From a virus (Duplodnaviria > Heunggongvirae > Uroviricota > Caudoviricetes), in IMG/VR virus record IMGVR_UViG_647533160_000004, positions 1-22,369 of that record: 22,369 bases of DNA, one strand, 5' to 3'. The position numbers and the translations under genes are program-made. The notes beneath the pieces are model-generated. The model was not told the origin of the DNA, did not search any database, and saw nothing but the letters and a program-made list of their open reading frames with translations. Positions 5,271-22,369 of this stretch are shown piece after piece. Each line of letters opens with the position of its first letter. Position 1 is the first letter of the stretch.

Positions 5271-5648
5271 TTACGCAGGTAGGTAAAGATATGATTGTGG
5301 TGGCTTAATATTACTACCTAGAGCAGAGATAGGAATTGGTTCTTTATATCTTTCCACTTCACCAATTTTTATTGCGTAGGCCTTTTCTCTACCTGAATAA
5401 TATGAGTCATAAAATTGCTTAGAAATACCTGCGTGTTTTTCCGTCTTTTTCCAAAGAGATTCCGGTTCGTCACTTAGTATTGATTCAATACGGAATTGAC
5501 CAACAACTTTACCTAATGGCATCGTGGCATAAATAACAACGGTGCTAATTTGCGGATTTTTGAATATACCTTTACGAAACTCGAACCGCTTTGTTCCGTT
5601 CAATATTTTTTCTGCAAACTCAGGCTTAATGGATAATAAAACTTTCAT
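5271..5648 (-). CDS. ASCH-domain protein (PUA-like fold), 125 aa
   Basis: N-terminal MKVLLSIKPEFAEKILNGTKRFEFRKG carries the ASCH signature G-x-K-x-x-E-x-R. AT-rich; overlaps the upstream gene by 23 nt, suggesting translational coupling. Confidence 0.7.
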   Translation of the reverse strand: MKVLLSIKPEFAEKILNGTKRFEFRKGIFKNPQISTVVIYATMPLGKVVGQFRIESILSDEPESLWKKTEKHAGISKQFYDSYYSGREKAYAIKIGEVERYKEPIPISALGSNIKPPQSYLYLPA

Positions 5649-6699
5649 TTATCTTGCCTAACTCGATGATCTTTAAGAACTGCTCATTTGTGAGTTTAAA
5701 GTGACTCCATCGGAATGCACGCGAACCATTTAGCCCCACATGATCTATTAAAATAGCACGATTGGGTCTCTTTGGCAAAGACAGATTGTATGTGAATCTT
5801 ATAATGAAAGGGTATCGACGTTCTTTATAGATTTTTCTGAGTTCATCTTCAGAAAATACGCTAAAACGAATACAATAGTCTACAAAACTATCTTCGCTTA
5901 AAAATTCAGAAATATTTTTTACGCTCTCAACTACACATAATGTACTGGCTACAGAACGATAGCGAGCTGGCCCTTTTTTGTCTCCGGTTCTATAGATGAC
6001 AATGATATCTCCTCTTTTCATTCCCATCACAGAACGCATTCCACATATGTAAATTTTATGAATGCTGTTAGCATGGGATATATCTTTGACAATATCTGGT
6101 GATTCATTTACAAGTTTTGAATCAGGGAATAGTCTAGTGTGATATTCGGGATAAATCGCCAGTAAATATTTGTTGGCCCTTGATGTCATTATTCGAGGGT
6201 AATCTAATAAAATATCACCATAAGGCTCATGCAAAGACCTCGCATATACAAACTCTTTCCCGTTATGTGTTTCTTTTTCACCATGAATGTAAAATCCGTA
6301 CGTTTGGAAAAGTTTTATTAGATGGACGTGTTTGTCGAAAACAGTAACATAAATATCATCAGATTTTGATGAAAATGCATGGTCAAACGCTTTTTTTAGA
6401 AATCGTTGTCCGCGAAGGGTGCCTTTAGATTCAAATTTGAATGTTCCTATCTTTAGATGACGTCCTGGTGGGAGCGCTGGATTAATGTCATTTGCATCAT
6501 CATTTTCTTTTAGATACATAAAACCTTCGATTTTATGCTTGTCATCATAGAGCACATAAGCTGATTCTCCTTCTCTGGCTTTTTTTTCTAACCAAAGAGG
6601 AAACTCTTTATAATCTTTTTTTAAAGAGTCAAAAAATGGGTCATTGTGATCAAAATCAGAGAATTTCTCATATTTTAAAGTATCCATTAAGTTCTCCAT
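5626..6699 (-). CDS. Two-domain cargo protein: N-terminal GNAT-like acetyltransferase region plus C-terminal possible PUA-like region (357 aa; alternative start at 6687)
   Basis: AT-rich ORF directly downstream of cI on the same strand. Residues ~40-160 (...AYVLYDD...KIGTFKFESKGTLRGQRFLKKAFDHAFS...IYVTVFDKHVHLIKLFQTYGFY...) resemble a GNAT fold; domain calls are by eye and unverified. The second ATG has a GGAG Shine-Dalgarno 6 nt upstream. Confidence 0.55.
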   Translation of the reverse strand: MENLMDTLKYEKFSDFDHNDPFFDSLKKDYKEFPLWLEKKAREGESAYVLYDDKHKIEGFMYLKENDDANDINPALPPGRHLKIGTFKFESKGTLRGQRFLKKAFDHAFSSKSDDIYVTVFDKHVHLIKLFQTYGFYIHGEKETHNGKEFVYARSLHEPYGDILLDYPRIMTSRANKYLLAIYPEYHTRLFPDSKLVNESPDIVKDISHANSIHKIYICGMRSVMGMKRGDIIVIYRTGDKKGPARYRSVASTLCVVESVKNISEFLSEDSFVDYCIRFSVFSEDELRKIYKERRYPFIIRFTYNLSLPKRPNRAILIDHVGLNGSRAFRWSHFKLTNEQFLKIIELGKINESFIIH

Positions 6700-6767: not shown

Positions 6768-7460
6768 CTATCCATGCTTCCTATACGTCTGCGGCATGCT
6801 CCCAATAACTTTCCCGAAGATAAATACCCGGTTCATCTCATCTTTCTCGATCGGGTCCCACGGTGAGTAGCTTTTGTTATCAGAGATAACCAGCAGCTTA
6901 TCCTTCATCATTTGCAGGCGCTTTACATGGGCTGTGTCGTCGTACAGAAACGCATAGATACCATCACCGTCGAAAGATTTAACCGTGATATCAACGAATA
7001 GAAGATCACCAGGTTCAATCGTTCCTGACATGCTGTCACCGCGTACGTTAATGATGCGGATATTTTCTGCCTTCCTACCATCGAACATGTGACGAGCATC
7101 GTCAAACGAGTACTCAACCGAGCGTAGAACTTCTACAAACTCACGGTTGATGACTCCCGGCCCGGCACTCACTTCTATATCAAGAACGTCAATCTTGAAG
7201 TATTTGGGATGGTTGGCAGTAGGCTTCCCTAATTGTTGACCGTCATTTCTCATCGGGCCTATGCCTGATGAGAGCCACTCTGTTCGAACACCCAATGCAT
7301 TAGCTATTTCAACAATTTTTGTTGAGCCGCGCGCGTTGCCGCTTGTCAGTCTCCAGATTGTGGGTTGAGCTACGCCAGACGCCTTTGCAAGAGCGCCTTG
7401 AGACATTCCAGATTGTTCCATCGCTAGGTTTAAGCGATCAGCAAGAGTTTCTTTTTTCAT
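6768..7460 (-). CDS. cI: CI-like prophage repressor, N-terminal HTH plus C-terminal S24 (LexA-like) autopeptidase domain (231 aa from first ATG; track ORF to 7496 starts at TTG)
   Basis: HTH region ...MSQGALAKASGVAQPTIWRLTSG... and C-terminal ...VRGDSMSGTIEPGDLLFVD...HVKRL... (Ser nucleophile in GDSM, downstream Lys) typical of cleavable lambdoid repressors. Divergent from cro; the TTG extension would overlap the operator palindrome, so the ATG at 7460 is preferred (possibly leaderless). Confidence 0.85.
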   Translation of the reverse strand: MKKETLADRLNLAMEQSGMSQGALAKASGVAQPTIWRLTSGNARGSTKIVEIANALGVRTEWLSSGIGPMRNDGQQLGKPTANHPKYFKIDVLDIEVSAGPGVINREFVEVLRSVEYSFDDARHMFDGRKAENIRIINVRGDSMSGTIEPGDLLFVDITVKSFDGDGIYAFLYDDTAHVKRLQMMKDKLLVISDNKSYSPWDPIEKDEMNRVFIFGKVIGSMPQTYRKHG

Positions 7461-7570
7461 AAGTTTTAATTTATACGCTTGCGTATTGATGGTCAAAACA
7501 CGTTTTGCTATTGTTATGGTTAATACGCATTGCTATTATTTATTCATTGTAATACCAATAGGAATTAATA
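7461..7570. promoter_or_regulatory. Right operator/promoter region (oR, pR/pRM-like) between cI and cro
   Basis: Perfect inverted repeat ATACGC-tt-GCGTAT (7473..7486), related TAATACGCATTGCTATTA (7521..7538), and TTGCTATTG (7504..7515) in the 110-bp divergent intergenic region. Confidence 0.5.
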
Positions 7571-10748: not shown

Positions 10749-12167
10749 TTAGAAAATAATGTTTGCTATATCCGAGATAGCATTTAAAGAACCTCTGTGG
10801 TCACTTCCTGTTTTAGGTAAAATATAGGAATATCGAGGGTCTTCATTATATGTTAACTTCCAGTGTTTTCCATCGCTTGACGCACTAAAACCTAAGTCCT
10901 TTAAACTTCTTTGTGTTGCGCTATCCATGCTTCTGTACCCTGTTAAAGTCCTTTTAAGTAATTGGCGGCGACTCTCGGTTTCTTTATTGTATTTATTATT
11001 GGCAATTAGGGATGATAAGATATGATAGCTTCTACCAAATTCATTTTTGTTTTTTATGGCAGTTTTTAGTGCGTCAATAATTATATTTTTGATTTCTCCA
11101 TCAAAAAAGTCAGTCTCTTCACCTGCATTAAGCACAATGCTTCCTTGGGCTGAAGCTTGTGATTGAAGAGTGCGTACTCTGTGCTCTAAAGCGGAGATCT
11201 TATGCTTAAGATCTTCTATTTGGTCATCTTTCGCAACATTATCGGCTTCGTAAAGCGCCATCAGTTCGCGTGTGTATTCTCCTCTTTCTTTGAGTGAGTT
11301 AATAGAATCTTTCGTTTTTCTGGTTTGTATCTCACTCCATCCACTATCTGAGACAGGAGCCATTGTAGTCGTAGCTCTTACAACATCATCAAATAACTCA
11401 TCTTCAAATTCTTTTGCGGTTTTCTCACCACGGCGATAAAAACTGATATTTTGACCTCGTGGCCAATAGATACCAACAGCACCAGCATAGGCATTTTTAG
11501 CATTTGTCTCATTTTTTAGCTTAATAGAAAATAGTCTATTGCTAGGCTCAATTAATACATGTGCTAATCCGCATACCTTTCTTGCAAGGCGTTCTGGGAT
11601 GATATTGTGAGCATGTTCATTGAAAAAATACTTGGAGCTAACGTATATTATTGGTAGTCTGTTGTCAGTTTCACCATTTATAACTTTAGCTGCTATATTT
11701 AAATGTTCATCAGTATCATCTAAGGAATGAGGTTCGACTGACACCTTGAAAATATCATCAAGACCACCAGAAAATTTATCAATCAATCTCATAACAACCA
11801 ATGGTTTCTTGGGTTGTGGGGCTAGATAAGCTGCATCTTGGCTTACAACGCTAGATTCCACCTGAATCCACATGGTATCAGTTTTGAGATTTTTATTAAT
11901 TGAAATATCTGTTACCCATTTGTGTGGCTCAGATATTTTCGAATACCTAAAACAGCCTAAACTAGTATCTTTGTTTTTATAAGTTATTATATCAATTCTT
12001 TCATTTTTAGACTCTATGAAGTGCTCCTCGCTTTTATAATCACATACTAATTGTGCTGGAATAAAAGTTGTATGTGGTGAGTCGTTTACCCAAGAAAAAC
12101 ATTCATTAAAGATCTCAGCTAGAGATGTGGAATTTGAAACATAAAAACCAGTTGAGAAATATTTCAT
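10749..12167 (-). CDS. Orphan 472-aa cargo protein, predicted cytoplasmic, with a C-terminal coiled-coil-like region; function unknown
   Basis: Long uninterrupted AT-rich ORF; AAGGA Shine-Dalgarno 6 nt upstream of the ATG at 12165..12167. No Walker or obvious nuclease motifs by eye. Heptad-like charged region ...EDLKHKISALEHRVRTLQSQ... Inserted between ren and the NinB-like ORF. Confidence 0.7.
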   Translation of the reverse strand: MKYFSTGFYVSNSTSLAEIFNECFSWVNDSPHTTFIPAQLVCDYKSEEHFIESKNERIDIITYKNKDTSLGCFRYSKISEPHKWVTDISINKNLKTDTMWIQVESSVVSQDAAYLAPQPKKPLVVMRLIDKFSGGLDDIFKVSVEPHSLDDTDEHLNIAAKVINGETDNRLPIIYVSSKYFFNEHAHNIIPERLARKVCGLAHVLIEPSNRLFSIKLKNETNAKNAYAGAVGIYWPRGQNISFYRRGEKTAKEFEDELFDDVVRATTTMAPVSDSGWSEIQTRKTKDSINSLKERGEYTRELMALYEADNVAKDDQIEDLKHKISALEHRVRTLQSQASAQGSIVLNAGEETDFFDGEIKNIIIDALKTAIKNKNEFGRSYHILSSLIANNKYNKETESRRQLLKRTLTGYRSMDSATQRSLKDLGFSASSDGKHWKLTYNEDPRYSYILPKTGSDHRGSLNAISDIANIIF

Positions 12168-14744: not shown

Positions 14745-15833
14745 CTATTCGCTATAAGTTAATGTTGGTTTTGAAAGTCTTTTGGATATTGTTTTTCCGA
14801 TATTAATGAATGGAGTTTCAATATATTTATAAATAAAGAATGATAAGAACAAGCTAAGAGCAATAATGAATGAAAACTTAGAGAACCCAGGTTTTTCATA
14901 AAGCGGAATGAAATCCTTAAAATTAATTAAAAATAGCATTACTATCGCATGGGATAAATACAGAGAGTAAGAGATATCACCTAGCTTACTGAGTATTTTA
15001 TTTTCCCTTAATCCGAAGTTAACTTCATAAAGTAAAACTCCCGTAATTATGGAGGCTGCCCACAATCCGAAGTTTAAAGGGCCATGACCAAATCTGAATT
15101 GATAAAAATATGAGCAAACACCAAATGAAACCAAAAGGAATGATATCGCCTTTGCGTTTTTTATATATTTAAATTTTCTGTGTATTATATACAGAAACAT
15201 CCCATAAACGAATTCTAACAGCATGGGTGATGACATTAAGTTTAGAAAGCCAATATGCCAATGACCTGTATCACCAATCGTAAACTTACTTGATAGAGAA
15301 AGGCTGTTGGAAAATTTCAACTGTATGAGAAGTAGCGGGACTATCAATGCAATAACTGATATTAATAATCTGTTTTTATGGCTCAGCGATATTGCAAGCA
15401 TAAAAATGAAATAAAAATAGACTTCAAAGGTTAATGTCCATGCTGGATAAAGCACGTTGTATCCGAAGAATGGCGCTTCTGAATAATAGTCCAGGTGAAG
15501 CAGAAACAATGAACGCAATAATTCACTTTCGGTGAAGACTGGGTTCAATAAAAAGAATAAGATTGTGCAAATGAAAAATACAGGGTAAATCCTGAAAAAA
15601 CGCCTGGTCATAAAGTTAATAGGGGAATTTGTTTCTTTTTTTTGACTCGATAACATTATTATAAATCCACTTATAATAAAAAACAGATCAACCCCAAAAC
15701 CACCACTAATAAACAATAAATCACCTAGATCTTTTTGTGCGTAAACTTCATTTAGGTATTGTTTATTGTGATATGCAACAACGAGTAATGCTGCTACACC
15801 TCGCAAATAGTGAATTGATTTTACCTTCTTCAT
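14745..15833 (-). CDS. Acyltransferase-3 family integral membrane protein (OafA/Oac-like), putative O-antigen/LPS acetyltransferase (362 aa)
   Basis: Very AT-rich, highly hydrophobic ORF with about 10 predicted transmembrane segments and N-terminal ...YLRGVAALLVVAYH...GVDLFFIISGFII... typical of acyltransferase family 3. Confidence 0.8.
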   Translation of the reverse strand: MKKVKSIHYLRGVAALLVVAYHNKQYLNEVYAQKDLGDLLFISGGFGVDLFFIISGFIIMLSSQKKETNSPINFMTRRFFRIYPVFFICTILFFLLNPVFTESELLRSLFLLHLDYYSEAPFFGYNVLYPAWTLTFEVYFYFIFMLAISLSHKNRLLISVIALIVPLLLIQLKFSNSLSLSSKFTIGDTGHWHIGFLNLMSSPMLLEFVYGMFLYIIHRKFKYIKNAKAISFLLVSFGVCSYFYQFRFGHGPLNFGLWAASIITGVLLYEVNFGLRENKILSKLGDISYSLYLSHAIVMLFLINFKDFIPLYEKPGFSKFSFIIALSLFLSFFIYKYIETPFINIGKTISKRLSKPTLTYSE

Positions 15834-16048: not shown

Positions 16049-16548
16049 TGTTTACCAGATCCTCTGGAGTGCCGGGGAGTATAATCGTTGATTAATCGAA
16101 TCTGCAACTATTTCAGAACGACCTAGGTTAAAGTGCGCTCTGCAGTCTCTTATATAAGGTGATACTTTAATTGTCTGGAAACTGGACAGGTTAGGAAGGA
16201 GCAGGAAACATCTTATTATACTTACCGAGTAGCTGCGGGTAAGGGGGGGATTTCCGTAGCCTGACAGGTAACATTGACACGTCAACATCGATGGTTTTTT
16301 TTATTTTTCCATGTGATGGAGCCCTGGTTGAAATGAAGCGTGAACTGATTGATGACTGAACAAAAGTTGGACTGGAAGATGCTCGCGCACAGGGAGGAAT
16401 TGGTGGACGTCGTCCTAAACTTACATCAGAACAATGGGCGCAGGCCGGGCGATTAATTGCATCAAAAGTCCCGCGTCAGAAGGTGGCGATCATCTATGAT
16501 ATTGGTGTATCGACTTTATATAAGAGGTTTCCAGCCAGGATTATATAA
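16049..16548 (+). pseudogene. pin: Decayed serine DNA invertase gene (Pin/Gin/Hin family) with frameshifts and in-frame stops
   Basis: Fragments in shifting frames: ...VWKLDRLGRS..., ...ALVEMKRELIDD(stop)TKVGLEDARAQGGIGGRRPKLTSEQWAQAGRLIASKVPRQKVAIIYDIGVSTLYKRFPA... The C-terminal HTH is intact; the catalytic N-terminal half is disrupted. Confidence 0.7.
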
Positions 16549-16658
16549 AACTGCAGACACGCCGTATGCAAGACGTGCTGCGGTTGGCTGATGCACTTTC
16601 GAGAGTGTATGTATTGAATAATTTCCAACCGTCATTAATTTTATTTATTTTTTGCATG

Positions 16659-16678
16659 AGAGGATTTGAACCTCCGAG
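16659..16678 (-). other. tRNA T-arm-like fragment (GGAGG-TTCAAAT-CCTCT) without acceptor stem or CCA
   Basis: Minus-strand ctcggaGGTTCAAATCCtct matches the T-stem/loop consensus. No complete cloverleaf could be built from the flanking sequence. Confidence 0.25.
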
Positions 16679-16871
16679 CCTCGACACCTTATGACAACGC
16701 GATATTCCCTTGATGACCGCTATGCGCCAAAATAACCAATTGATAAATAAGTTGATTTTAATTAGTTGGAAGCAAGTCAGGTCAAATTCAGCATGCCGCT
16801 CTCTGTATCGGGTAGTTAAATTTTTCTATAACTGATAGTAATATGTTAAAACTCACACAGATAAATTATCA

Positions 16872-18854
16872 TTGCTCAACAAGTATAATGGAGTTCCCGT
16901 GGATACAGCAGAACATGATGGCAAATTTGCTTGGGCTAGTTTTTATGAGGCTTTTGCCAACGCGTTACTGACTTGGCGAAATCGTAGAGATGAATTAGTC
17001 AAAGGTATTCATCTAATTGCCTCAGGTGTGGAAGGAATGTCCCATCTGCAGGACAAATCTATTATGGGAGAGATCTTTCCCTTAAAAGACATTTGTCCGT
17101 TTACTACTATGGGCTTGTTCAATCGTAACTTGACCGATAGCAATCGCAAAATTATTGCTGCCAAGCTAGCGAATTTGTTGGGCGTGAACGAACCGATTCC
17201 TGACTCCTTTGCCGGAATCCCGCTGTTGAATAACCAAAAATCTTGGTTCTTTGGTTATGAAAAGTCACGCGACCCTAATGACATTGAATGCTTGTGGGAA
17301 ATGTTCTCGCAGGCAATGACCTTTGCGGATAACCAGAATACTAACTCTGCAGACTTCACTGCCGCATATGACATTGCTTCTACAGTAATGAATGTCGGTT
17401 GGAATCTCACCATGGGGTTGTACTGGACCCGTCCTTGGTTCTACCCTACTTTAGATAGCCAGTCGCAGTATTACATTCAGACAGTGTTAAACATTAAGAT
17501 CATTAAAAACGGGGCAAAAGGTCGCTGTAGTGGACAAAGTTACCTGAGTCTTATGCGGGCGCTGAACGAGGTCTTTACCCAACCAAACTATCCGGTTCAT
17601 TCTTTCCCAGAACTTTCTTTATCAGCGTGGAATACAGATCTTAGCCAGTCTAAAGATGAGGTGGCAAATAGAACGTGGAAAGCCTCTTTACTGAATAAAA
17701 TTAAGGCGTTATGCCTGAAAAAAAATGGCCCTTATTTCACTGCTTCGGAGTTGGAAGAAAACTACTTGGACGTATTCAAGGTAGAGCATCCTGAGAGCAA
17801 AACAGTTACAAGCTCAATCTACTTTTATCTACAGAAACTATGCAATGATGATGAGTTAAAGTCCCTTGAGTCCGGAAATTATGAATACCTGAATTTTGAG
17901 AAAAACGAATCCCAGACGATAACTGAGGAAACTGTCGAAGAGAGTGCGCCGTTGCCAAAACTCACTCACGTTCCTTATGACATCAGTCATCTGGTGCAGG
18001 ATGGCTGTTTCTTGGAAGAGGCTAAGATCCAACTCACACTTCAGCGCCTGATCGACAAGAAAAACCTGATATTACAAGGACCACCCGGAACTGGAAAAAC
18101 CTGGTTAGCGCGACGTCTGGCGTACTGCTTGATGGGAGAAAAAGCACCTGAGCGTATTAGCGCGGTGCAATTTCACCCGAACCTCTCTTACGAAGACTTT
18201 ATTCGCGGCTGGCGTCCAGGTAAAGAAGGGCAATTGACGCTAATTGATGGACCTTTTGTAAATGCAATCAAAACTGCAGTCAATAATCCTACCTCGAAAT
18301 ATGTGGTGATAATTGAAGAGATTAATCGTGGCAATCCGGCGCAAATCTTCGGTGAAACACTCACGTTGATGGAAGCAGATAAACGCACGCCGACTGAGGC
18401 ATTATCTCTTTCCTATCCTAAAAATGATGATGAAAAAATATACATTCCTGAGAATCTATATATCATCGGTACGATGAATATTGCAGACCGCTCACTCGCA
18501 CTACTTGACCTAGCGCTGCGCCGTCGTTTCGCGTTTATCGATCTAAAGCCAGCTTTTAATGACGCGTGGAGAAACTGGGTAAATTATAATTACGCAATTG
18601 ATTTTGACATGTTAGCATTCATCAAATCTCGACTGACGGTACTTAACGATATGCTGGCAAAAGATGTTACCTTAGGACCACAGTTTTGTATCGGTCACAG
18701 CTATGTCACCCCAGCTATCGGCCAAAAAATCAACGATGCCCAGGCTTGGTATGAACAAGTCGTTGATACAGAGATCTGCCCTTTGCTCGCCGAATATTGG
18801 TTCGATGCTCCAAATAAAGTCGATGAAGCCAGAAAAGTGTTATTAGCAAAATGA
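16872..18854 (+). CDS. McrB-like AAA+ GTPase with a long (~390 aa) unassigned N-terminal region (660 aa; alternative GTG start at 16899)
   Basis: C-terminal module has Walker A LQGPPGTGKTW, Walker B VVIIEEINRG and the McrB-type motif IGTMNIADRS. The N-terminal ~390 aa show no motif I can assign. GGAG lies 5 nt upstream of the GTG at 16899. Confidence 0.85.
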   Translation: MLNKYNGVPVDTAEHDGKFAWASFYEAFANALLTWRNRRDELVKGIHLIASGVEGMSHLQDKSIMGEIFPLKDICPFTTMGLFNRNLTDSNRKIIAAKLANLLGVNEPIPDSFAGIPLLNNQKSWFFGYEKSRDPNDIECLWEMFSQAMTFADNQNTNSADFTAAYDIASTVMNVGWNLTMGLYWTRPWFYPTLDSQSQYYIQTVLNIKIIKNGAKGRCSGQSYLSLMRALNEVFTQPNYPVHSFPELSLSAWNTDLSQSKDEVANRTWKASLLNKIKALCLKKNGPYFTASELEENYLDVFKVEHPESKTVTSSIYFYLQKLCNDDELKSLESGNYEYLNFEKNESQTITEETVEESAPLPKLTHVPYDISHLVQDGCFLEEAKIQLTLQRLIDKKNLILQGPPGTGKTWLARRLAYCLMGEKAPERISAVQFHPNLSYEDFIRGWRPGKEGQLTLIDGPFVNAIKTAVNNPTSKYVVIIEEINRGNPAQIFGETLTLMEADKRTPTEALSLSYPKNDDEKIYIPENLYIIGTMNIADRSLALLDLALRRRFAFIDLKPAFNDAWRNWVNYNYAIDFDMLAFIKSRLTVLNDMLAKDVTLGPQFCIGHSYVTPAIGQKINDAQAWYEQVVDTEICPLLAEYWFDAPNKVDEARKVLLAK

Positions 18855-19972
18855 CGACAATAACCGGGAGTGAGCAACATACAGCATCACGTATTCCCAT
18901 GCGAAATATCTGGATGCTGATGCTGTACGCTTCAGATCTGTTTCGTCAGTTAGGGCGCAATCAGATCGCAGTAGAAGATAACCCAGCAGAAATCCCCGAC
19001 CTGGTGGCGACAATCCTCCTTCATGAGATTACGCTGCGCCGACGTCGCAATTTAAATATGGGATACCAAACTTGTCATGCGGCCCTGAACCGGGTGAGAG
19101 GGCGCATTGACATACTGTATACTGCCAGTCATCAACTACTGGAACGGGGACAGGTTGCCTGCCATTTTCAAGACATAACCCTCAACACCCCCCGAAATCG
19201 CTATGTTCGCTGTGCGTTAGAACGTCTGGCCTCAATCATAGTGAAACCGTCTTTGGCGGCAGATTGCCATTTTATGGCAATATCACTTCGCCGTGAGGGG
19301 ATAAATGGAGGATATCCTGCCCCCCACGAATTACCCTCAGTGTGGCGTTTTGGACGCCATGATGCCGCAGATAAACCGATGGTCGATGCCGCACGATTAG
19401 CTTTTGAACTGCTGATGCCGACCGAAGATCAAGGCCAATATCTTTTACCTGCGCCCTCAAATAACCTTTACTGGATGAGAAGACTATTTGAAAAAGGTAT
19501 CGCTGGCTTATATCGTGTACACCTTGCCAAAACAACTTGGCAGGTCTCTGCAGGGAAAGAGCTGAAATGGGCGTTGAGCGATCAAAGTGCAGGTAGTGCA
19601 GAGATTTTCCCGACAATGAAGTCAGACATTATTCTGGAACACAAGACTGCCCAGCGGCGTATTATTATCGATACCAAATTTAATTCGATTCTGACAAAGG
19701 GTTGGCATCGGGAGCAATCACTACGTAATGGCTATATTTATCAGCTATATACCTACCTTAGAACACAGGAGAACAAGACGGATCCGCTTTCGCTCAATGC
19801 CGCTGGTCTTCTACTTCATCCAGCTGTTGGCTATATGCTTAATGAGTATGTTGTCACTCAGGGACATAAGATCCATTTTGCTACAGTAGATATGACGGTA
19901 GATGCTAAAGCAATTAAAAAACAATTGCTGGCAATAGCCCATGATTGTGCAGGAGTCGCGGTTGATGACTAA
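18851..19972 (+). CDS. McrC-like endonuclease subunit (PD-(D/E)xK), 373 aa
   Basis: Start overlaps the McrB-like stop (ATGA, 18851..18854). C-terminal ...KSDIILEHK...RRIIIDTKF... fits a PD-(D/E)xK nuclease core; size and pairing are as in McrBC systems. Confidence 0.8.
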   Translation: MTTITGSEQHTASRIPMRNIWMLMLYASDLFRQLGRNQIAVEDNPAEIPDLVATILLHEITLRRRRNLNMGYQTCHAALNRVRGRIDILYTASHQLLERGQVACHFQDITLNTPRNRYVRCALERLASIIVKPSLAADCHFMAISLRREGINGGYPAPHELPSVWRFGRHDAADKPMVDAARLAFELLMPTEDQGQYLLPAPSNNLYWMRRLFEKGIAGLYRVHLAKTTWQVSAGKELKWALSDQSAGSAEIFPTMKSDIILEHKTAQRRIIIDTKFNSILTKGWHREQSLRNGYIYQLYTYLRTQENKTDPLSLNAAGLLLHPAVGYMLNEYVVTQGHKIHFATVDMTVDAKAIKKQLLAIAHDCAGVAVDD

Positions 19973-20451
19973 CCATCCTATAAGGCACTGGCTGTAATAT
20001 AATCAATAGTTTCAATTAAGTAGCTGTTATCCGTGCTTAGTCATCATATGACGCACCACGGTCTAATTTTCCTGCTCATACATTGATATATCCTTGTCAA
20101 GTCCGAAAAGTCGCAGTCCACTATTAGGTATACCGATTGCCAGCACCAAAAGCTTCTTTGTGATTATTATATCGGGGAATGCCTATTTTTTAGTGACAAT
20201 ATCAGATAGCAATTAATAAGCGGTGCCGGTAATGGATGTTATGTTTAATGTATAGACACAGCCATCATAAACTAAACGTCTGTTGTTCGCTCATAACCGA
20301 CATTTATCTCAGTTATGGAAGATAATTATGTATGCAGATAATGGGGCAGACAGTCGTGGAGTAAACAAGGTTTTGCACTGCTTGGCGGCATCGTTATCTT
20401 ATTTTTAATTATGTGCCTCTTAACATAAGTTGGGACAAAACAGAGACACAT

Positions 20452-20482
20452 AAGGTCTCACAAAGGTCTGCAAGGCCTCACA
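20452..20482. repeat. Three tandem about 10-bp direct repeats (AAGGTCTCACA / AAGGTCTGCA / AAGGCCTCACA), candidate integrase arm-type sites
   Basis: Contiguous direct repeats in the AT-rich non-coding stretch about 200 bp inside the prophage from the icd-fragment junction. Confidence 0.3.
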
Positions 20483-20674
20483 TGTATTGAGATGTTAATA
20501 AAATGTAGACTTGTAATTTGGATATAAATGGTAGAGAAAACCTTTCCCCAAAATAAAAACGAACGTCAATGAAATCAAACGGTTGAATAAAGTTGATTTT
20601 GGCTAATAAAAAAACAATAAAATAATTTTTATCATTAAATATCAATGACTTGAACTTAATGTTTTTATATACTG

Positions 20675-20836
20675 TTACGCCATATGGGCTGGACTGAAGC
20701 CGCAGACTTGATTGTTAAAGGTATGGAAGGCGCAATCAATGCGAAGACCGTAACCTATGACTTCGAACGTCTGATGGAAGGTGCTAAACTGCTGAAATGC
20801 AGCGAGTTTGGTGATGCGATCATCAAGAACATGTAA
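20675..20836 (+). pseudogene. icdC: Displaced 3' fragment of isocitrate dehydrogenase gene (icd', last about 53 codons), marking the right prophage junction
   Basis: In-frame translation ...[53 protein letters not shown](stop) matches the Icd C-terminus as I recall it. No start codon; the frame has a stop just upstream at 20657..20659. Confidence 0.85.
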
Positions 20837-20859
20837 TCTCTACATGTGTTAAATATTGA

Positions 20860-20891
20860 AACGGGCGTATAACACGCCCGTTGTTTTATTT
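20860..20891 (+). terminator. Rho-independent terminator following the icd fragment
   Basis: AACGGGCGT-ataac-ACGCCCGTT hairpin (9-bp stem) followed by GTTTTATTT, 24 nt after the icd stop codon. Confidence 0.8.
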
Positions 20892-20938
20892 ATGTGGATA
20901 TTATTAATAGCATGTCGAGCATATTTATATGAAGCCCA

Positions 20939-21262
20939 TTACTTGAGTCCATATAGGCATATTTTTATAATGCAACTATTATGCAAACATTTATTTGTTA
21001 TTTCGCTTTCTCCTGGAGGACACTCTTGACTGCTTTTGAGTAAAATCCATAAATCCTTGTTGAATGGTGTGATGTTATAAATAGTAATAGGGTATTCTTT
21101 ATCCTTAAGGATAATACCAGACTTAACCGGTGTAAATATACTTCCAGGAGGGAGAAATATAGTAGATTGATACCAGATGATCATTTTCATATCACCCCAT
21201 ATGGCTGAAAAAGATATGCCGCATGTAGGTTGAATTACCGTGTCAATTACTATCCACTTCAT
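20939..21262 (-). CDS. iraM: Anti-adaptor protein IraM (RpoS stabiliser), 107 aa
   Basis: Translation [43 protein letters not shown]... matches IraM in length and, as I recall it, in sequence; AT-rich gene with a long AT-rich upstream region. Confidence 0.8.
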
Positions 21263-21726
21263 TTGTTATGTCTTATCCCACGGTGTTTAATATAGTTCAT
21301 TTGGATGTTCATTTCTTGATTTTGCATATGTGTATATTACTCCCCAAAAAATAAATTAATTAAAAATTAATGTCATTACCTATATAAAACAAAATTTAAA
21401 GCAAGGAATCTCAATAGAGATTAAACAAAATGAGATTTAGTGAAAGCATTAAATTATTCACTTCGTTTTAGATTTGTTTAGCTAAAATGTTATACATTCA
21501 AATGACTGAACATTCTGTAATTAAAACATAGCCTTTATGCTATTTTGTGCCAATTTGCAAAACATTATGGTTGGCCTTTTAATATAACGATAATGATGAA
21601 TATAAGCATGACCTGAGAATAAGGTTTCAATTTTTGAGTTATATAGGAATGGTTAAACCTGTTCCTGACTAAAATATATATAATCAGATGATGACTAAAC
21701 CAAAACACATGTGCGTTAAGTATTGA

Positions 21727-21757
21727 AACGGGCGTATGGCACGCCCGTTGGTTTTAT
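21727..21757. terminator. Second copy of the icd-terminator-like hairpin (AACGGGCGT-atggc-ACGCCCGTT + GGTTTTAT)
   Basis: Near-duplicate of the hairpin at 20860..20891 including about 20 nt of shared upstream flank (acatgtg..ttaa.tattgaa); lies between iraM and ycgX. Confidence 0.5.
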
Positions 21758-21964
21758 AAATTTGTTAACCGTTATAAAATAACGTATAGAAAGTCAAGTG
21801 ATCACATTTCAAATATCAATTTGATAGTATTGGCCTGGTGATTATTTATGGGTGGCAATAAAAAGATAGTATTTATCATCCATAGGGATAGTCTCTGCAC
21901 TTTTATTTCCATTATGCTAATGTCTTACTGAATTATGAAGCATTTCTTAAGCTTCCAACTCTAG

Positions 21965-22369
21965 CTAGATTAATGGTTTATTGTTTTCTACATCTTCAAT
22001 ATATAAAAGCGTATTATCAATGGCGTAGTAACTGCGTTTGTTATGATTAACATCAGTAACCCACCGGAAAACGCCCGCGCCTGCCAGTGTTGAACAGTAT
22101 TCCCGAAATGTTGATTTTCCGCAAATATGAAGCAATGCGGCCTCTTTTATTTTAGCAGGGTTCTTGGTCGTACTAACTTTTAACAGGTTCCTGGTTCCTC
22201 TTAATAACAAAACCGTGTCATCGTGAGTAATAATTCTGATGTTATCCGTAGCCAGATAATAAATGTAATGTGCAATACGGTGATGTTTTAATTCTGAATA
22301 AAACCAGGAGAAGTTTTGCTCTTTTCTCACTTGCTCAAACATCTTTTGAAAAACAACAACCTGATCCAT
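21965..22369 (-). CDS. ycgX: Hypothetical protein, likely YcgX homolog (134 aa); start codon at the window edge
   Basis: Complete ORF ending the window (ATG at 22367..22369). Its size and position after iraM match my memory of the K-12 gene order; the sequence itself was not compared. Confidence 0.5.
   Translation of the reverse strand: MDQVVVFQKMFEQVRKEQNFSWFYSELKHHRIAHYIYYLATDNIRIITHDDTVLLLRGTRNLLKVSTTKNPAKIKEAALLHICGKSTFREYCSTLAGAGVFRWVTDVNHNKRSYYAIDNTLLYIEDVENNKPLI

What the first reader, a model, noticed from the sequence alone, without database searches (positions are those of the whole stretch)
16872..19972. McrBC-like module with an unusual N-terminal domain occupying the slot where K-12 e14 carries mcrA
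The McrB-like GTPase (Walker A/B and MNxxDR motifs) is fused to a ~390-aa N-terminal region I cannot assign, and is translationally coupled (ATGA overlap) to a McrC-like PD-(D/E)xK nuclease. The pair lies at the prophage end next to the icd fragment, where K-12 e14 has the HNH restriction gene mcrA as I recall it. This implies defence-gene exchange at a fixed prophage position. The N-terminal reader domain is expected to set the specificity for modified DNA, which here is unknown.
Basis: partly seen in the sequence, partly recalled or inferred. Interest (0 to 1): 0.7.

Follow-up and report, generated by a model that had tools for sequence, protein, structure and literature searches.

The report
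Prophage McrBC variant with unknown reader
An intact two-gene McrBC-type restriction module sits at the end of a decayed E. coli prophage, where K-12 carries mcrA; its targeting head is a widespread, uncharacterised domain (Pfam DUF8425) plus a DpnI-like winged helix, so what it attacks is unknown.

Summary
Window 16899-18854 (+) encodes a 651-aa McrB-like GTPase; the likely start is GTG 16899, not TTG 16872. Window 18851-19972 (+) encodes a 373-aa McrC-like PD-(D/E)xK nuclease joined by an ATGA overlap. All catalytic motifs are intact. The pair lies between a pin pseudogene and the icd' fragment, where K-12 e14 has mcrA.

The unassigned ~370-aa N-terminus resolves into two domains and a linker:
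- Residues 1-247 are Pfam DUF8425 (PF28527), found only on McrB GTPases in what I checked, with about 2,450 clusters at 50% identity.
- Residues 248-335 are a DpnI_C-type winged helix.
- Residues 336-368 are an acidic disordered linker.

This NTD-wH-NTPase plus McrC-like architecture was noted but not characterised by Helbrecht et al. 2024. It is not the K-12 DUF3578 reader.

The winged helix keeps only 1 of 5 DpnI methyl-pocket residues, which fits a Dam+ host. It is also the fastest-evolving folded domain.

Verdict: a new E. coli member of a known but untested McrBC variant, of moderate interest.

The parts
16101..16548 (+). pin (DNA invertase) pseudogene; left neighbour of the cargo slot
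   Evidence: RefSeq annotation of the identical VCSW7 locus: recombinase family protein, frameshifted. 75% nt identity to K-12 pinE.
16676..20284 (.). Cargo cassette, bounded by sequence shared with a sitABCD-carrying icd prophage
   Evidence: blastn of the window against L007: shared flanks at 16573-16675 (84%) and 20285-22369 (94%), nothing in between. No K-12 similarity between 16560 and 20670. GC is 41-49%.
16890..16893 (+). GGAG Shine-Dalgarno, 5 nt before the GTG start
   Evidence: Read directly from the sequence.
16899..18854 (+). mcrB-like gene, 651 aa (WP_000379042, annotated 'AAA family ATPase')
16899..17639 (+). DUF8425 (PF28527) N-terminal domain, residues 1-247; mostly helical with one beta-hairpin
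   Evidence: Homologues at 56-72% identity carry a precomputed PF28527 annotation. The AF2 model has pLDDT 93.5 and pTM 0.91. There is no match in the local Pfam copy or to PDB sequences.
17391..17465 (+). Candidate HhH-plus-Asp motif: NVGWNLTMGLYW...YPTLD(186)SQS
   Evidence: In the model, helix 150-160, hairpin and helix 169-177 are followed by a Pro-rich loop, and D186 sits at the N-terminus of helix 187-196. L185 is invariant and D186 is at least 90% conserved, otherwise E. The only hhalign segment against E. coli MutY aligns it to HFPILD138GNVKRV, at E 0.14.
17640..17903 (+). DpnI_C-type winged-helix domain, residues 248-335; recognition helix ESKTVTSSIYFYLQKL
17904..18002 (+). Acidic, predicted-disordered linker, residues 336-368
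   Evidence: pLDDT is below 50 over model residues 319-355. pI is 4.35.
18003..18851 (+). McrB GTPase (AAA_5 plus McrB_lid), residues 369-651. Walker A at 18078-18101, Walker B at 18303-18329, NxxD at 18468-18494, RRRF at 18513-18530
18851..19972 (+). mcrC-like gene, 373 aa from the ATG that overlaps the mcrB-like TGA (RefSeq starts at 18899). PD-(D/E)xK residues D259, D274 and K276 lie at 19616-19681
20669..20836 (+). icd' 3' fragment (attR duplication), followed by iraM at 20939-21262 (-)
   Evidence: RefSeq annotation. 94% identity to K-12 icdC/iraM.

Best explanation
This is a functional McrBC-family type IV restriction module, meaning a GTP-driven nuclease that acts on modified or otherwise non-self DNA. 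It is carried as cargo at the attR end of a degraded lambdoid prophage in icd.

Shown by homology:
- The C-terminal domain is a GTP-specific AAA+ motor of the McrB type with every catalytic motif intact.
- The partner is an McrC with an intact PD-(D/E)xK site.
- The two genes are translationally coupled.

Inferred from the solved EcoKMcrBC structures: the McrB-like subunit forms a hexamer, McrC inserts into it and stimulates GTP hydrolysis, and DNA is cut after translocation from bound sites.

Inferred for targeting: the head is composite. DUF8425 is the constant DNA- or base-sensing module of this McrB subfamily. It may be a diverged HhH-GPD-like, base-flipping fold. The DpnI-type winged helix is an add-on, fast-evolving specificity element. 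Four of the five DpnI methyl-pocket residues are replaced (S305, S306, Y308 and F309 in place of E, K, R and Q), and the host is Dam+. The target is therefore not Gm6ATC. It is most likely a base modification that E. coli does not make itself, in phage or foreign DNA.
For: GTPase and McrC homology with intact motifs.

Operon overlap conserved in Leclercia.

No methyltransferase is annotated in the prophage, as expected for a type IV system.

Population: 289 full-length copies at 99.3% identity or more, with both genes annotated as intact CDS in the records listed.

DUF8425 was followed by an McrB GTPase in every long homologue checked, and by McrC in the three neighbourhoods read.

Many homologues have DUF8425 as their only N-terminal domain. 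Others add a winged helix, HTH_24, Mrr_N, TPR or a ~165-aa extension.

Winged helix: homologous to the DpnI winged helix. Pocket residues are from PMC3424567, mapped through the alignments.

Identity to the Leclercia orthologue by domain: GTPase 84%, McrC 77%, DUF8425 67%, winged helix 42%.

The family recurs on 28 IMG/VR viral contigs and 27 plasmids.
Against: No activity, expression or phage-resistance data exist for this module or any DUF8425 McrB; searches for the accessions and the domain name found no paper.

No convincing promoter was found: predicted sites number no more than in shuffled sequence.

DUF8425 is acidic (pI 5.4; family median 5.75), which is unusual for a DNA-binding head.

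The window's winged helix is below Pfam's own threshold, so it could be a decaying or repurposed domain.

PADLOC matches only generic 'REase_II' models through the GTPase.

The host prophage is heavily degraded, and 16 genomes carry only truncated remains.
Confidence: 0.7

Rival explanations
1. DUF8425 is a catalytically active, HhH-GPD-derived DNA glycosylase. The system would then excise a modified base to create abasic sites as well as, or as the trigger for, McrC cleavage.

For: Foldseek independently ranks SsOgg and MjOgg first, followed by OGG1 and MutY.

The family consensus G-V-G-W-N-L-T-M-G-L-Y-W-I-R-P-W-x-F-P-T-L-D has the helix-hairpin-helix, Pro-rich loop and Asp layout, with a G-to-D spacing of 19. 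The spacing is 20 in E. coli MutY and Nth (sequences).

The Asp is at least 90% conserved, and the exceptions seen are Glu. The only hhalign segment against MutY pairs it with the catalytic D138.

Against: No PF00730 hit was found for any of 31 or 88 family members. A profile of the domain finds no PDB sequence.

The hhalign segment is 15 columns at E 0.14, and against Nth it picks a different region.

The position of the Schiff-base Lys is Asn, and MutY's Asn140 equivalent is variable. The domain is acidic.
Confidence: 0.12
2. It is a 6mA-dependent system that reads methylated ApT or GATC through the DpnI-like winged helix, as proposed for winged-helix fusion nucleases.
For: The winged helix is a true DpnI_C homologue. 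The winged-helix fusions tested by Helbrecht et al. showed Dam-dependent toxicity (PMC11037411).
Against: The host is E. coli, which is Dam+ by established knowledge (not tested here). The module is stably kept in 289 genomes.

Only Q312, equivalent to DpnI Q235, survives of the five pocket and base-contact residues; E228, K229, R231 and Q232 are S, S, Y and F.

Helbrecht et al. state that only about 10% of winged-helix fusions keep the GATC/6mA motif.
Confidence: 0.06
3. It is ordinary mcrBC, meaning the K-12-type 5mC/5hmC reader, merely relocated to a prophage.
For: RefSeq names the second gene mcrC, and NCBIfam's McrC equivalog model is passed. The GTPase is 47% identical to K-12 McrB.
Against: There is no DUF3578/ADAM domain. 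BLASTP to K-12 McrB aligns only residues 371-650. The McrB model scores 265 bits against a 637-bit cut-off. McrC is only 24% identical to K-12 McrC. The target base could still turn out to be a cytosine modification, but it would be read by a different domain.
Confidence: 0.03
4. It is a silent, decaying remnant with no present function, retained by hitch-hiking in a few successful clones.
For: The surrounding prophage is full of pseudogenes, including tail fibre, ybcN and pin. All E. coli copies are 99.3% identical or more, so their persistence may reflect clonal descent and says little about selection. Sixteen genomes have deletions that leave only the mcrC 3' end. No promoter is evident.
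Against: Two long ORFs (651 and 373 aa) are uninterrupted with all catalytic residues kept. The Leclercia orthologue, in a non-prophage context, keeps the same architecture and gene overlap.
Confidence: 0.09

Closest known systems
EcoKMcrBC (E. coli K-12 mcrB/mcrC; PDB 6hz4, 6ut6)
   Same: The McrB-type GTPase has the same Walker A, Walker B, NxxD and Arg motifs and is 47% identical. The McrC partner has the same D...DxK site. mcrB lies upstream and overlaps mcrC. The expected mechanism is the same: a hexameric GTPase motor plus a nuclease.
   Different: The N-terminal DUF3578/ADAM 5mC-flipping domain is absent. It is replaced by DUF8425, a winged helix and an acidic linker, about 368 aa against about 160. 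McrC is only 24% identical. No internal start equivalent to McrB-S is evident. The module lies at a prophage end, not in the hsd-mrr immigration control region.
'NTD-wH-NTPase' fusions paired with McrC-like subunits (Helbrecht et al. 2024, Front Microbiol, PMC11037411)
   Same: [quoted passage not shown] That class is likewise uncharacterised; the authors' one purification attempt failed.
   Different: Whether the paper's examples carry DUF8425 could not be checked. The E. coli winged helix lacks the 6mA/GATC motif on which the paper's tested enzymes rely, and it lives in a Dam+ host.
EcoKMcrA (HNH type IV enzyme of prophage e14)
   Same: It occupies the same genomic slot, between pin and the icd' fragment at the attR end of an icd-integrated prophage. 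It is also a methyltransferase-less restriction function.
   Different: There is no sequence or fold relationship. McrA is a single NEco-HNH protein that needs no NTP.
R.DpnI C-terminal winged-helix domain (PF17726; PDB 4esj, 4kyw)
   Different: Four of the five residues that form the methyl pockets and contact GATC are substituted. The domain is fused to a GTPase, not to a PD-(D/E)xK domain.
HhH-GPD DNA glycosylases (Ogg2/OGG1/MutY; PF00730)
   Same: This is the best, though weak, structural match for DUF8425 by two programs. A GhG hairpin, a Pro-rich loop and a conserved Asp occur at comparable spacing and comparable secondary-structure positions.
   Different: There is no significant sequence or profile match, TM-scores are below 0.4, there is no Lys nucleophile and the domain is acidic. 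Membership is not established.

Membership tests
McrBC type IV restriction systems | McrB-type AAA+ GTPase domain with Walker A, Walker B and the NxxD signature | tested here: met
   AAA_5 at 3.5e-27. PDB McrB at E 4e-77. 47% identity to K-12. GPPGTGKT, IIEEINR, MNIADRS and LRRRF located.
McrBC type IV restriction systems | Adjacent McrC with an N-terminal McrB-binding region and a PD-(D/E)xK nuclease | tested here: met
   PF10117 at 5.1e-21. NCBIfam McrC equivalog at 355.6 against a cut-off of 338. D259, D274 and K276 align to K-12 D244, D257 and K259.
McrBC type IV restriction systems | mcrB upstream of mcrC in one operon | tested here: met
   ATGA overlap at 18851-18854. The same 4-nt overlap occurs in Leclercia.
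McrBC type IV restriction systems | GTP-dependent cleavage of modified DNA; no cognate methyltransferase | not testable with these tools
   No methyltransferase is annotated in the prophage. Activity needs experiments.
EcoKMcrB orthologues (NCBIfam NF008457 equivalog) | Full-length match including the DUF3578/ADAM 5mC-binding N-terminal domain | tested here: not met
   265.5 bits against a 637-bit cut-off, and only model positions 176-452 matched. No DUF3578 hit. BLASTP aligns only the GTPase.
Pfam DUF8425 (PF28527) | Match to the family model | tested here: met
   The test is indirect, because the local Pfam copy lacks PF28527. Homologues 56-72% identical over residues 1-247 carry the precomputed PF28527 annotation. 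A profile of the domain finds 2,454 clusters.
NTD-wH-NTPase / McrC-like systems (Helbrecht 2024) | DpnI-like winged helix between an unknown N-terminal domain and an McrB-like NTPase, with an McrC-like partner | tested here: met
6mA/GATC-reading winged-helix domains (DpnI type) | Recognition-helix residues E228, K229, R231, Q232 and Q235 of DpnI, or close variants | tested here: not met
   The window has S305, S306, Y308, F309 and Q312, so 1 of 5 is kept. The window's winged helix scores 15.9 bits, below the PF17726 cut-off of 23.
HhH-GPD DNA glycosylase superfamily (PF00730) | Two-lobed helical fold | tested here: inconclusive
HhH-GPD DNA glycosylase superfamily (PF00730) | HhH hairpin, Gly/Pro-rich loop and catalytic Asp | tested here: inconclusive
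   The motif is present at the right secondary-structure positions. hhalign pairs FYPTLD with MutY FPILD138, but over only 15 columns at E 0.14.
HhH-GPD DNA glycosylase superfamily (PF00730) | Match to the family profile | tested here: not met
   No PF00730 hit at E up to 10 for the 31 DUF8425-only sequences. It was also not among the 25 families listed for the 88 full-length sequences. A PDB sequence search with the profile found nothing.
HhH-GPD DNA glycosylase superfamily (PF00730) | N-glycosylase activity | not testable with these tools
   Needs biochemistry.

The most novel reading that the evidence does not exclude
DUF8425 is a diverged HhH-GPD (glycosylase-type) base-flipping module that a large branch of McrB GTPases uses as its constant DNA sensor. 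In some members it may still excise the modified base. McrBC systems would then include a class that reads, or processes, foreign DNA through a DNA-repair glycosylase fold. The E. coli prophage copy would be a genetically tractable model for that class.
Probability: 0.3. Interest if true: 0.7.

Novelty: new member of a known kind. Interest (0 to 1): 0.45.

Why it matters
McrBC systems are among the commonest type IV restriction systems, but only a few of their reader domains have been characterised (DUF3578, YTH, EVE/PUA-like).

DUF8425 marks a large McrB branch, with about 2,000 clusters at E 1e-10 or better across many phyla, plasmids and viral contigs. Its target is unknown.

The copy found here is native to E. 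coli and intact, and it lies in a 3.6-kb cassette with defined borders. That makes the question of what DUF8425/winged-helix McrBC systems recognise directly testable with standard phage and methylated-plasmid assays.

It also poses a specific puzzle: a DpnI-type winged helix kept in a Dam+ host. And it adds a documented case of cargo replacement (mcrA, mcrBC-like, or sitABCD) at one prophage end.

Tried and rejected
1. Sequence-based assignment of residues 1-375. The local Pfam copy, NCBIfam and PADLOC gave nothing beyond a weak DpnI_C hit. PDB phmmer and hmmsearch gave nothing for DUF8425.

2. Bridging DUF8425 to HhH-GPD by profiles.
- hhalign against E. coli MutY and Nth gave only short, non-significant segments.
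- Two attempts to collect a diverse HhH-GPD alignment returned only enterobacterial MutY at 79% identity or more, because only the best hits are listed. These were poor uses of capped searches.
- The representatives search lists only the best 150 hits, so its weak tail could not be inspected for glycosylases.

3. The AFDB fold libraries were not available.

4. A large alignment of the representatives failed, so nine long members were scanned instead.

5. The ~165-aa N-terminal extension seen in many relatives, but not in the window protein, could not be assigned.

6. The promoter and terminator scan, Rfam and the repeat search around the module showed nothing above chance.

7. The 50,697 deposited phage genomes contain no relative.

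8. The 256-aa gene that replaces the cassette in the sitABCD-type prophages has no recognisable family. It cannot be called a defence gene.
Full report
**What is there.** The window is a degraded lambdoid prophage inserted in icd. It is 100% identical to E. coli VCSW7. On the + strand, ORF 16872..18854 and ORF 18851..19972 are annotated in RefSeq as 'AAA family ATPase' (WP_000379042, start 16899) and 'McrC' (WP_001425460, start 18899).

The first gene most likely starts at GTG 16899. A GGAG lies 5 nt upstream, and the closest homologues begin MDA... at that position. The product is then 651 aa.

The second gene most likely starts at ATG 18851, which overlaps the TGA of the first gene as ATGA. 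The Leclercia orthologue has the same 4-nt overlap, and its protein similarity starts at residue 5, upstream of RefSeq's Met17.

**The conserved machinery.**
- Residues 369-651 are an McrB GTPase. Evidence: Pfam AAA_5 at 3.5e-27; NCBIfam McrB model positions 176-452 at 265 bits; PDB EcoKMcrB at E 4e-77; 47% identity to K-12 McrB 178-457.
- Walker A (GPPGTGKT, K400), Walker B (IIEEINR), the NxxD signature (MNIADRS) and LRRRF are all present.
- The partner matches Pfam McrBC and passes NCBIfam's McrC equivalog cut-off (355.6 against 338). It is only 24% identical to K-12 McrC.
- The nuclease triad is intact: D259, D274 and K276 align with K-12 D244, D257 and K259.
- No lesion was found. The module occurs in 305 of 5,426 complete E. 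coli genomes. Of these, 289 are full length at 99.3% identity or more, and 16 are truncated remains. Both genes are annotated as intact CDS in the records listed.

**The N-terminal 368 residues.** They are not the K-12 reader. No DUF3578 hit was found, and BLASTP to K-12 McrB aligns only the GTPase. A homologue search found 277 relatives, all McrB-like, carrying precomputed Pfam families newer than the local copy. One search names these families: PF28527 is DUF8425 and PF28529 is McrB_lid.

An AlphaFold model built on 88 sequences (pLDDT 84.6) resolves three parts:
- a confident, mostly helical domain (residues 1-247);
- a winged helix (about 248-335);
- a disordered acidic linker (pLDDT below 50; pI 4.35).

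**The winged helix.**
- A profile of this region from nine family members hits the DpnI C-terminal domain at E 2.8e-13.
- The window copy alone scores 15.9 bits against PF17726, whose cut-off is 23. Relatives score 36-49 bits.
- Siwek et al. (PMC3424567) name E228, K229, R231, Q232 and Q235 as the residues that wall the two methyl pockets and contact GATC. Through the alignments, these correspond to S305, S306, Y308, F309 and Q312 in the window protein. The reading residues of the 6mA/GATC sensor are therefore largely gone.
- This removes the apparent conflict with a Dam+ host. That E. coli is Dam+ is established knowledge and was not tested here.
- Helbrecht et al. 2024 (PMC11037411) describe this same class of architecture, 'NTD-wH-NTPase' with an McrC-like partner. 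They report one failed purification and no characterisation, and state that only about 10% of winged-helix fusions keep the GATC/6mA motif.
- Against the Leclercia orthologue, the winged helix is the least conserved folded domain at 42%. DUF8425 is 67%, the GTPase 84% and McrC 77%. That fits either a specificity-determining role or relaxed constraint.

**DUF8425.**
- A profile of this domain alone finds 2,454 clusters at 50% identity with E up to 1e-3, and 1,993 with E up to 1e-10. All nine long members scanned end in an McrB-type AAA_5 domain. McrC follows in the three neighbourhoods read.
- Most relatives have DUF8425, a ~70-aa linker and the GTPase. Some have no other N-terminal domain. Others carry a ~165-aa N-terminal extension, HTH_24, Mrr_N or TPR repeats. 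A minority has the winged-helix insertion. DUF8425 is therefore the constant element of this McrB branch, and the other domains are accessories.
- The DUF8425-only model is very confident (pLDDT 93.5, pTM 0.91).
- No sequence method links it to a known fold.
- The family consensus ...G-V-G-W-N-L-T-M-G-L-Y-W-I-R-P-W-x-F-P-T-L-D-x-x-S... falls on helix 150-160, a hairpin and helix 169-177. A Pro-rich loop follows, with D186 at the N-terminus of helix 187-196.
- That is the layout of the HhH-GPD signature. The G-to-D spacing is 19, against 20 in E. coli MutY ([25 protein letters not shown]138G) and Nth (sequences).
- hhalign's single local match between the DUF8425 profile and MutY pairs FYPTLD with HFPILD138, but over only 15 columns at E 0.14. 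Against Nth it picks another region.
- I treat the HhH-GPD relationship as a lead with roughly even odds, not as a finding. The domain is also acidic (pI 5.4), which argues for caution about DNA binding.

**Context.**
- K-12 e14 has pinE-mcrA-icdC-iraM. Here the order is pin pseudogene, mcrB-like, mcrC-like, icd', iraM.
- Only the pin remnant (75%) and the icd'/iraM side (94%) align with K-12. The prophages differ, but the slot is equivalent.
- Other icd prophages (L007-L009) carry sitABCD plus a 256-aa gene of no recognisable family at this end. One of them shares short flanks with the window, at 16573-16675 and from 20285 onward. This brackets a 3.6-kb cassette.
- The slot therefore exchanges cargo, and not only defence cargo.
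- Relatives occur on 28 IMG/VR viral contigs and 27 plasmids, but in none of 50,697 deposited phage genomes.
- The Leclercia orthologue is chromosomal and not in a prophage.

**How it most likely works.** By homology with the solved EcoKMcrBC complexes, the GTPase forms hexamers, McrC binds and stimulates GTP hydrolysis, and DNA is cut after translocation. That step is inferred. Targeting is by the DUF8425 plus winged-helix head, which is also inferred. The target is unknown, and Gm6ATC is unlikely. No methyltransferase accompanies the module, so self/non-self discrimination is most simply explained by dependence on a modification the host lacks. No publication mentions the proteins or DUF8425.

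**Verdict.** The module is a new E. coli, prophage-borne member of a known but experimentally untouched McrBC variant. Interest is moderate (0.45). It comes from the tractability of the E. coli copy, the DpnI-type winged helix in a Dam+ host, and the possible glycosylase ancestry of DUF8425.

Noticed in passing
window 5271-6699 (- strand): Two overlapping genes lie next to the cI-like S24 repressor gene (6768-7496, -). One encodes 357 aa with no Pfam family; the other encodes 125 aa with an ASCH domain. They match the PADLOC candidate system PDC-M11 over their full length: PDC-M11A at 2.1e-133 and PDC-M11B at 6.8e-52. This is a second probable defence cargo, in the rexAB-like position of the prophage.
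   Followed up: partly
window 10749-12167 (- strand): A 472-aa ORF with no Pfam family has a weak PADLOC match to HEC-07 (1.2e-9). It lies between the replication genes and the tail-fibre remnant.
   Followed up: no
window 14745-15833 (- strand): An Acyl_transf_3 family acyltransferase (2.6e-34) sits in a low-GC stretch of 32-37%. It is probably a surface-polysaccharide-modifying gene carried as extra prophage cargo (a moron).
   Followed up: no
L007 1874-6781, L008, L009 (other E. coli icd prophages): At the attR-proximal slot these prophages carry sitABCD (an iron/manganese transporter) and a 256-aa hypothetical gene (WP_000567449) in place of mcrA or the mcrBC-like pair. The 256-aa protein matches nothing in Pfam or PADLOC.
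   Followed up: partly
homologues P0005, P0007, P0010-P0013 and others, residues 1-165: Many DUF8425-McrB proteins carry a conserved ~165-aa N-terminal extension (consensus CWFVGA...GIWE...GDRIAIK...SVMAIKAIG...REWYFYT...VWRV). It matches no Pfam family and no PDB sequence. It may be another unrecognised reader domain.
   Followed up: partly
L010 4948-5703: A stand-alone 251-aa DUF8425 gene lies directly upstream of a DUF8425-McrB/McrC pair, and a NucS_C gene lies downstream.
   Followed up: no
plasmid hits H59-H61 (Bacteroidales) and H62-H65 (Deinococcus radiodurans): In Bacteroidales plasmids, DUF8425-like sequence lies under genes annotated 'FRG domain-containing protein'. In D. radiodurans plasmids it lies under 'McrB family protein'. 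The domain may therefore occur outside McrB fusions.
   Followed up: no
window 18899 versus 18851: RefSeq starts mcrC at Met17 (18899). The ATG at 18851 overlaps the upstream stop codon, and the 12 residues before Met17 are conserved in the Leclercia orthologue. The annotated start is probably 48 nt too far downstream.
   Followed up: yes
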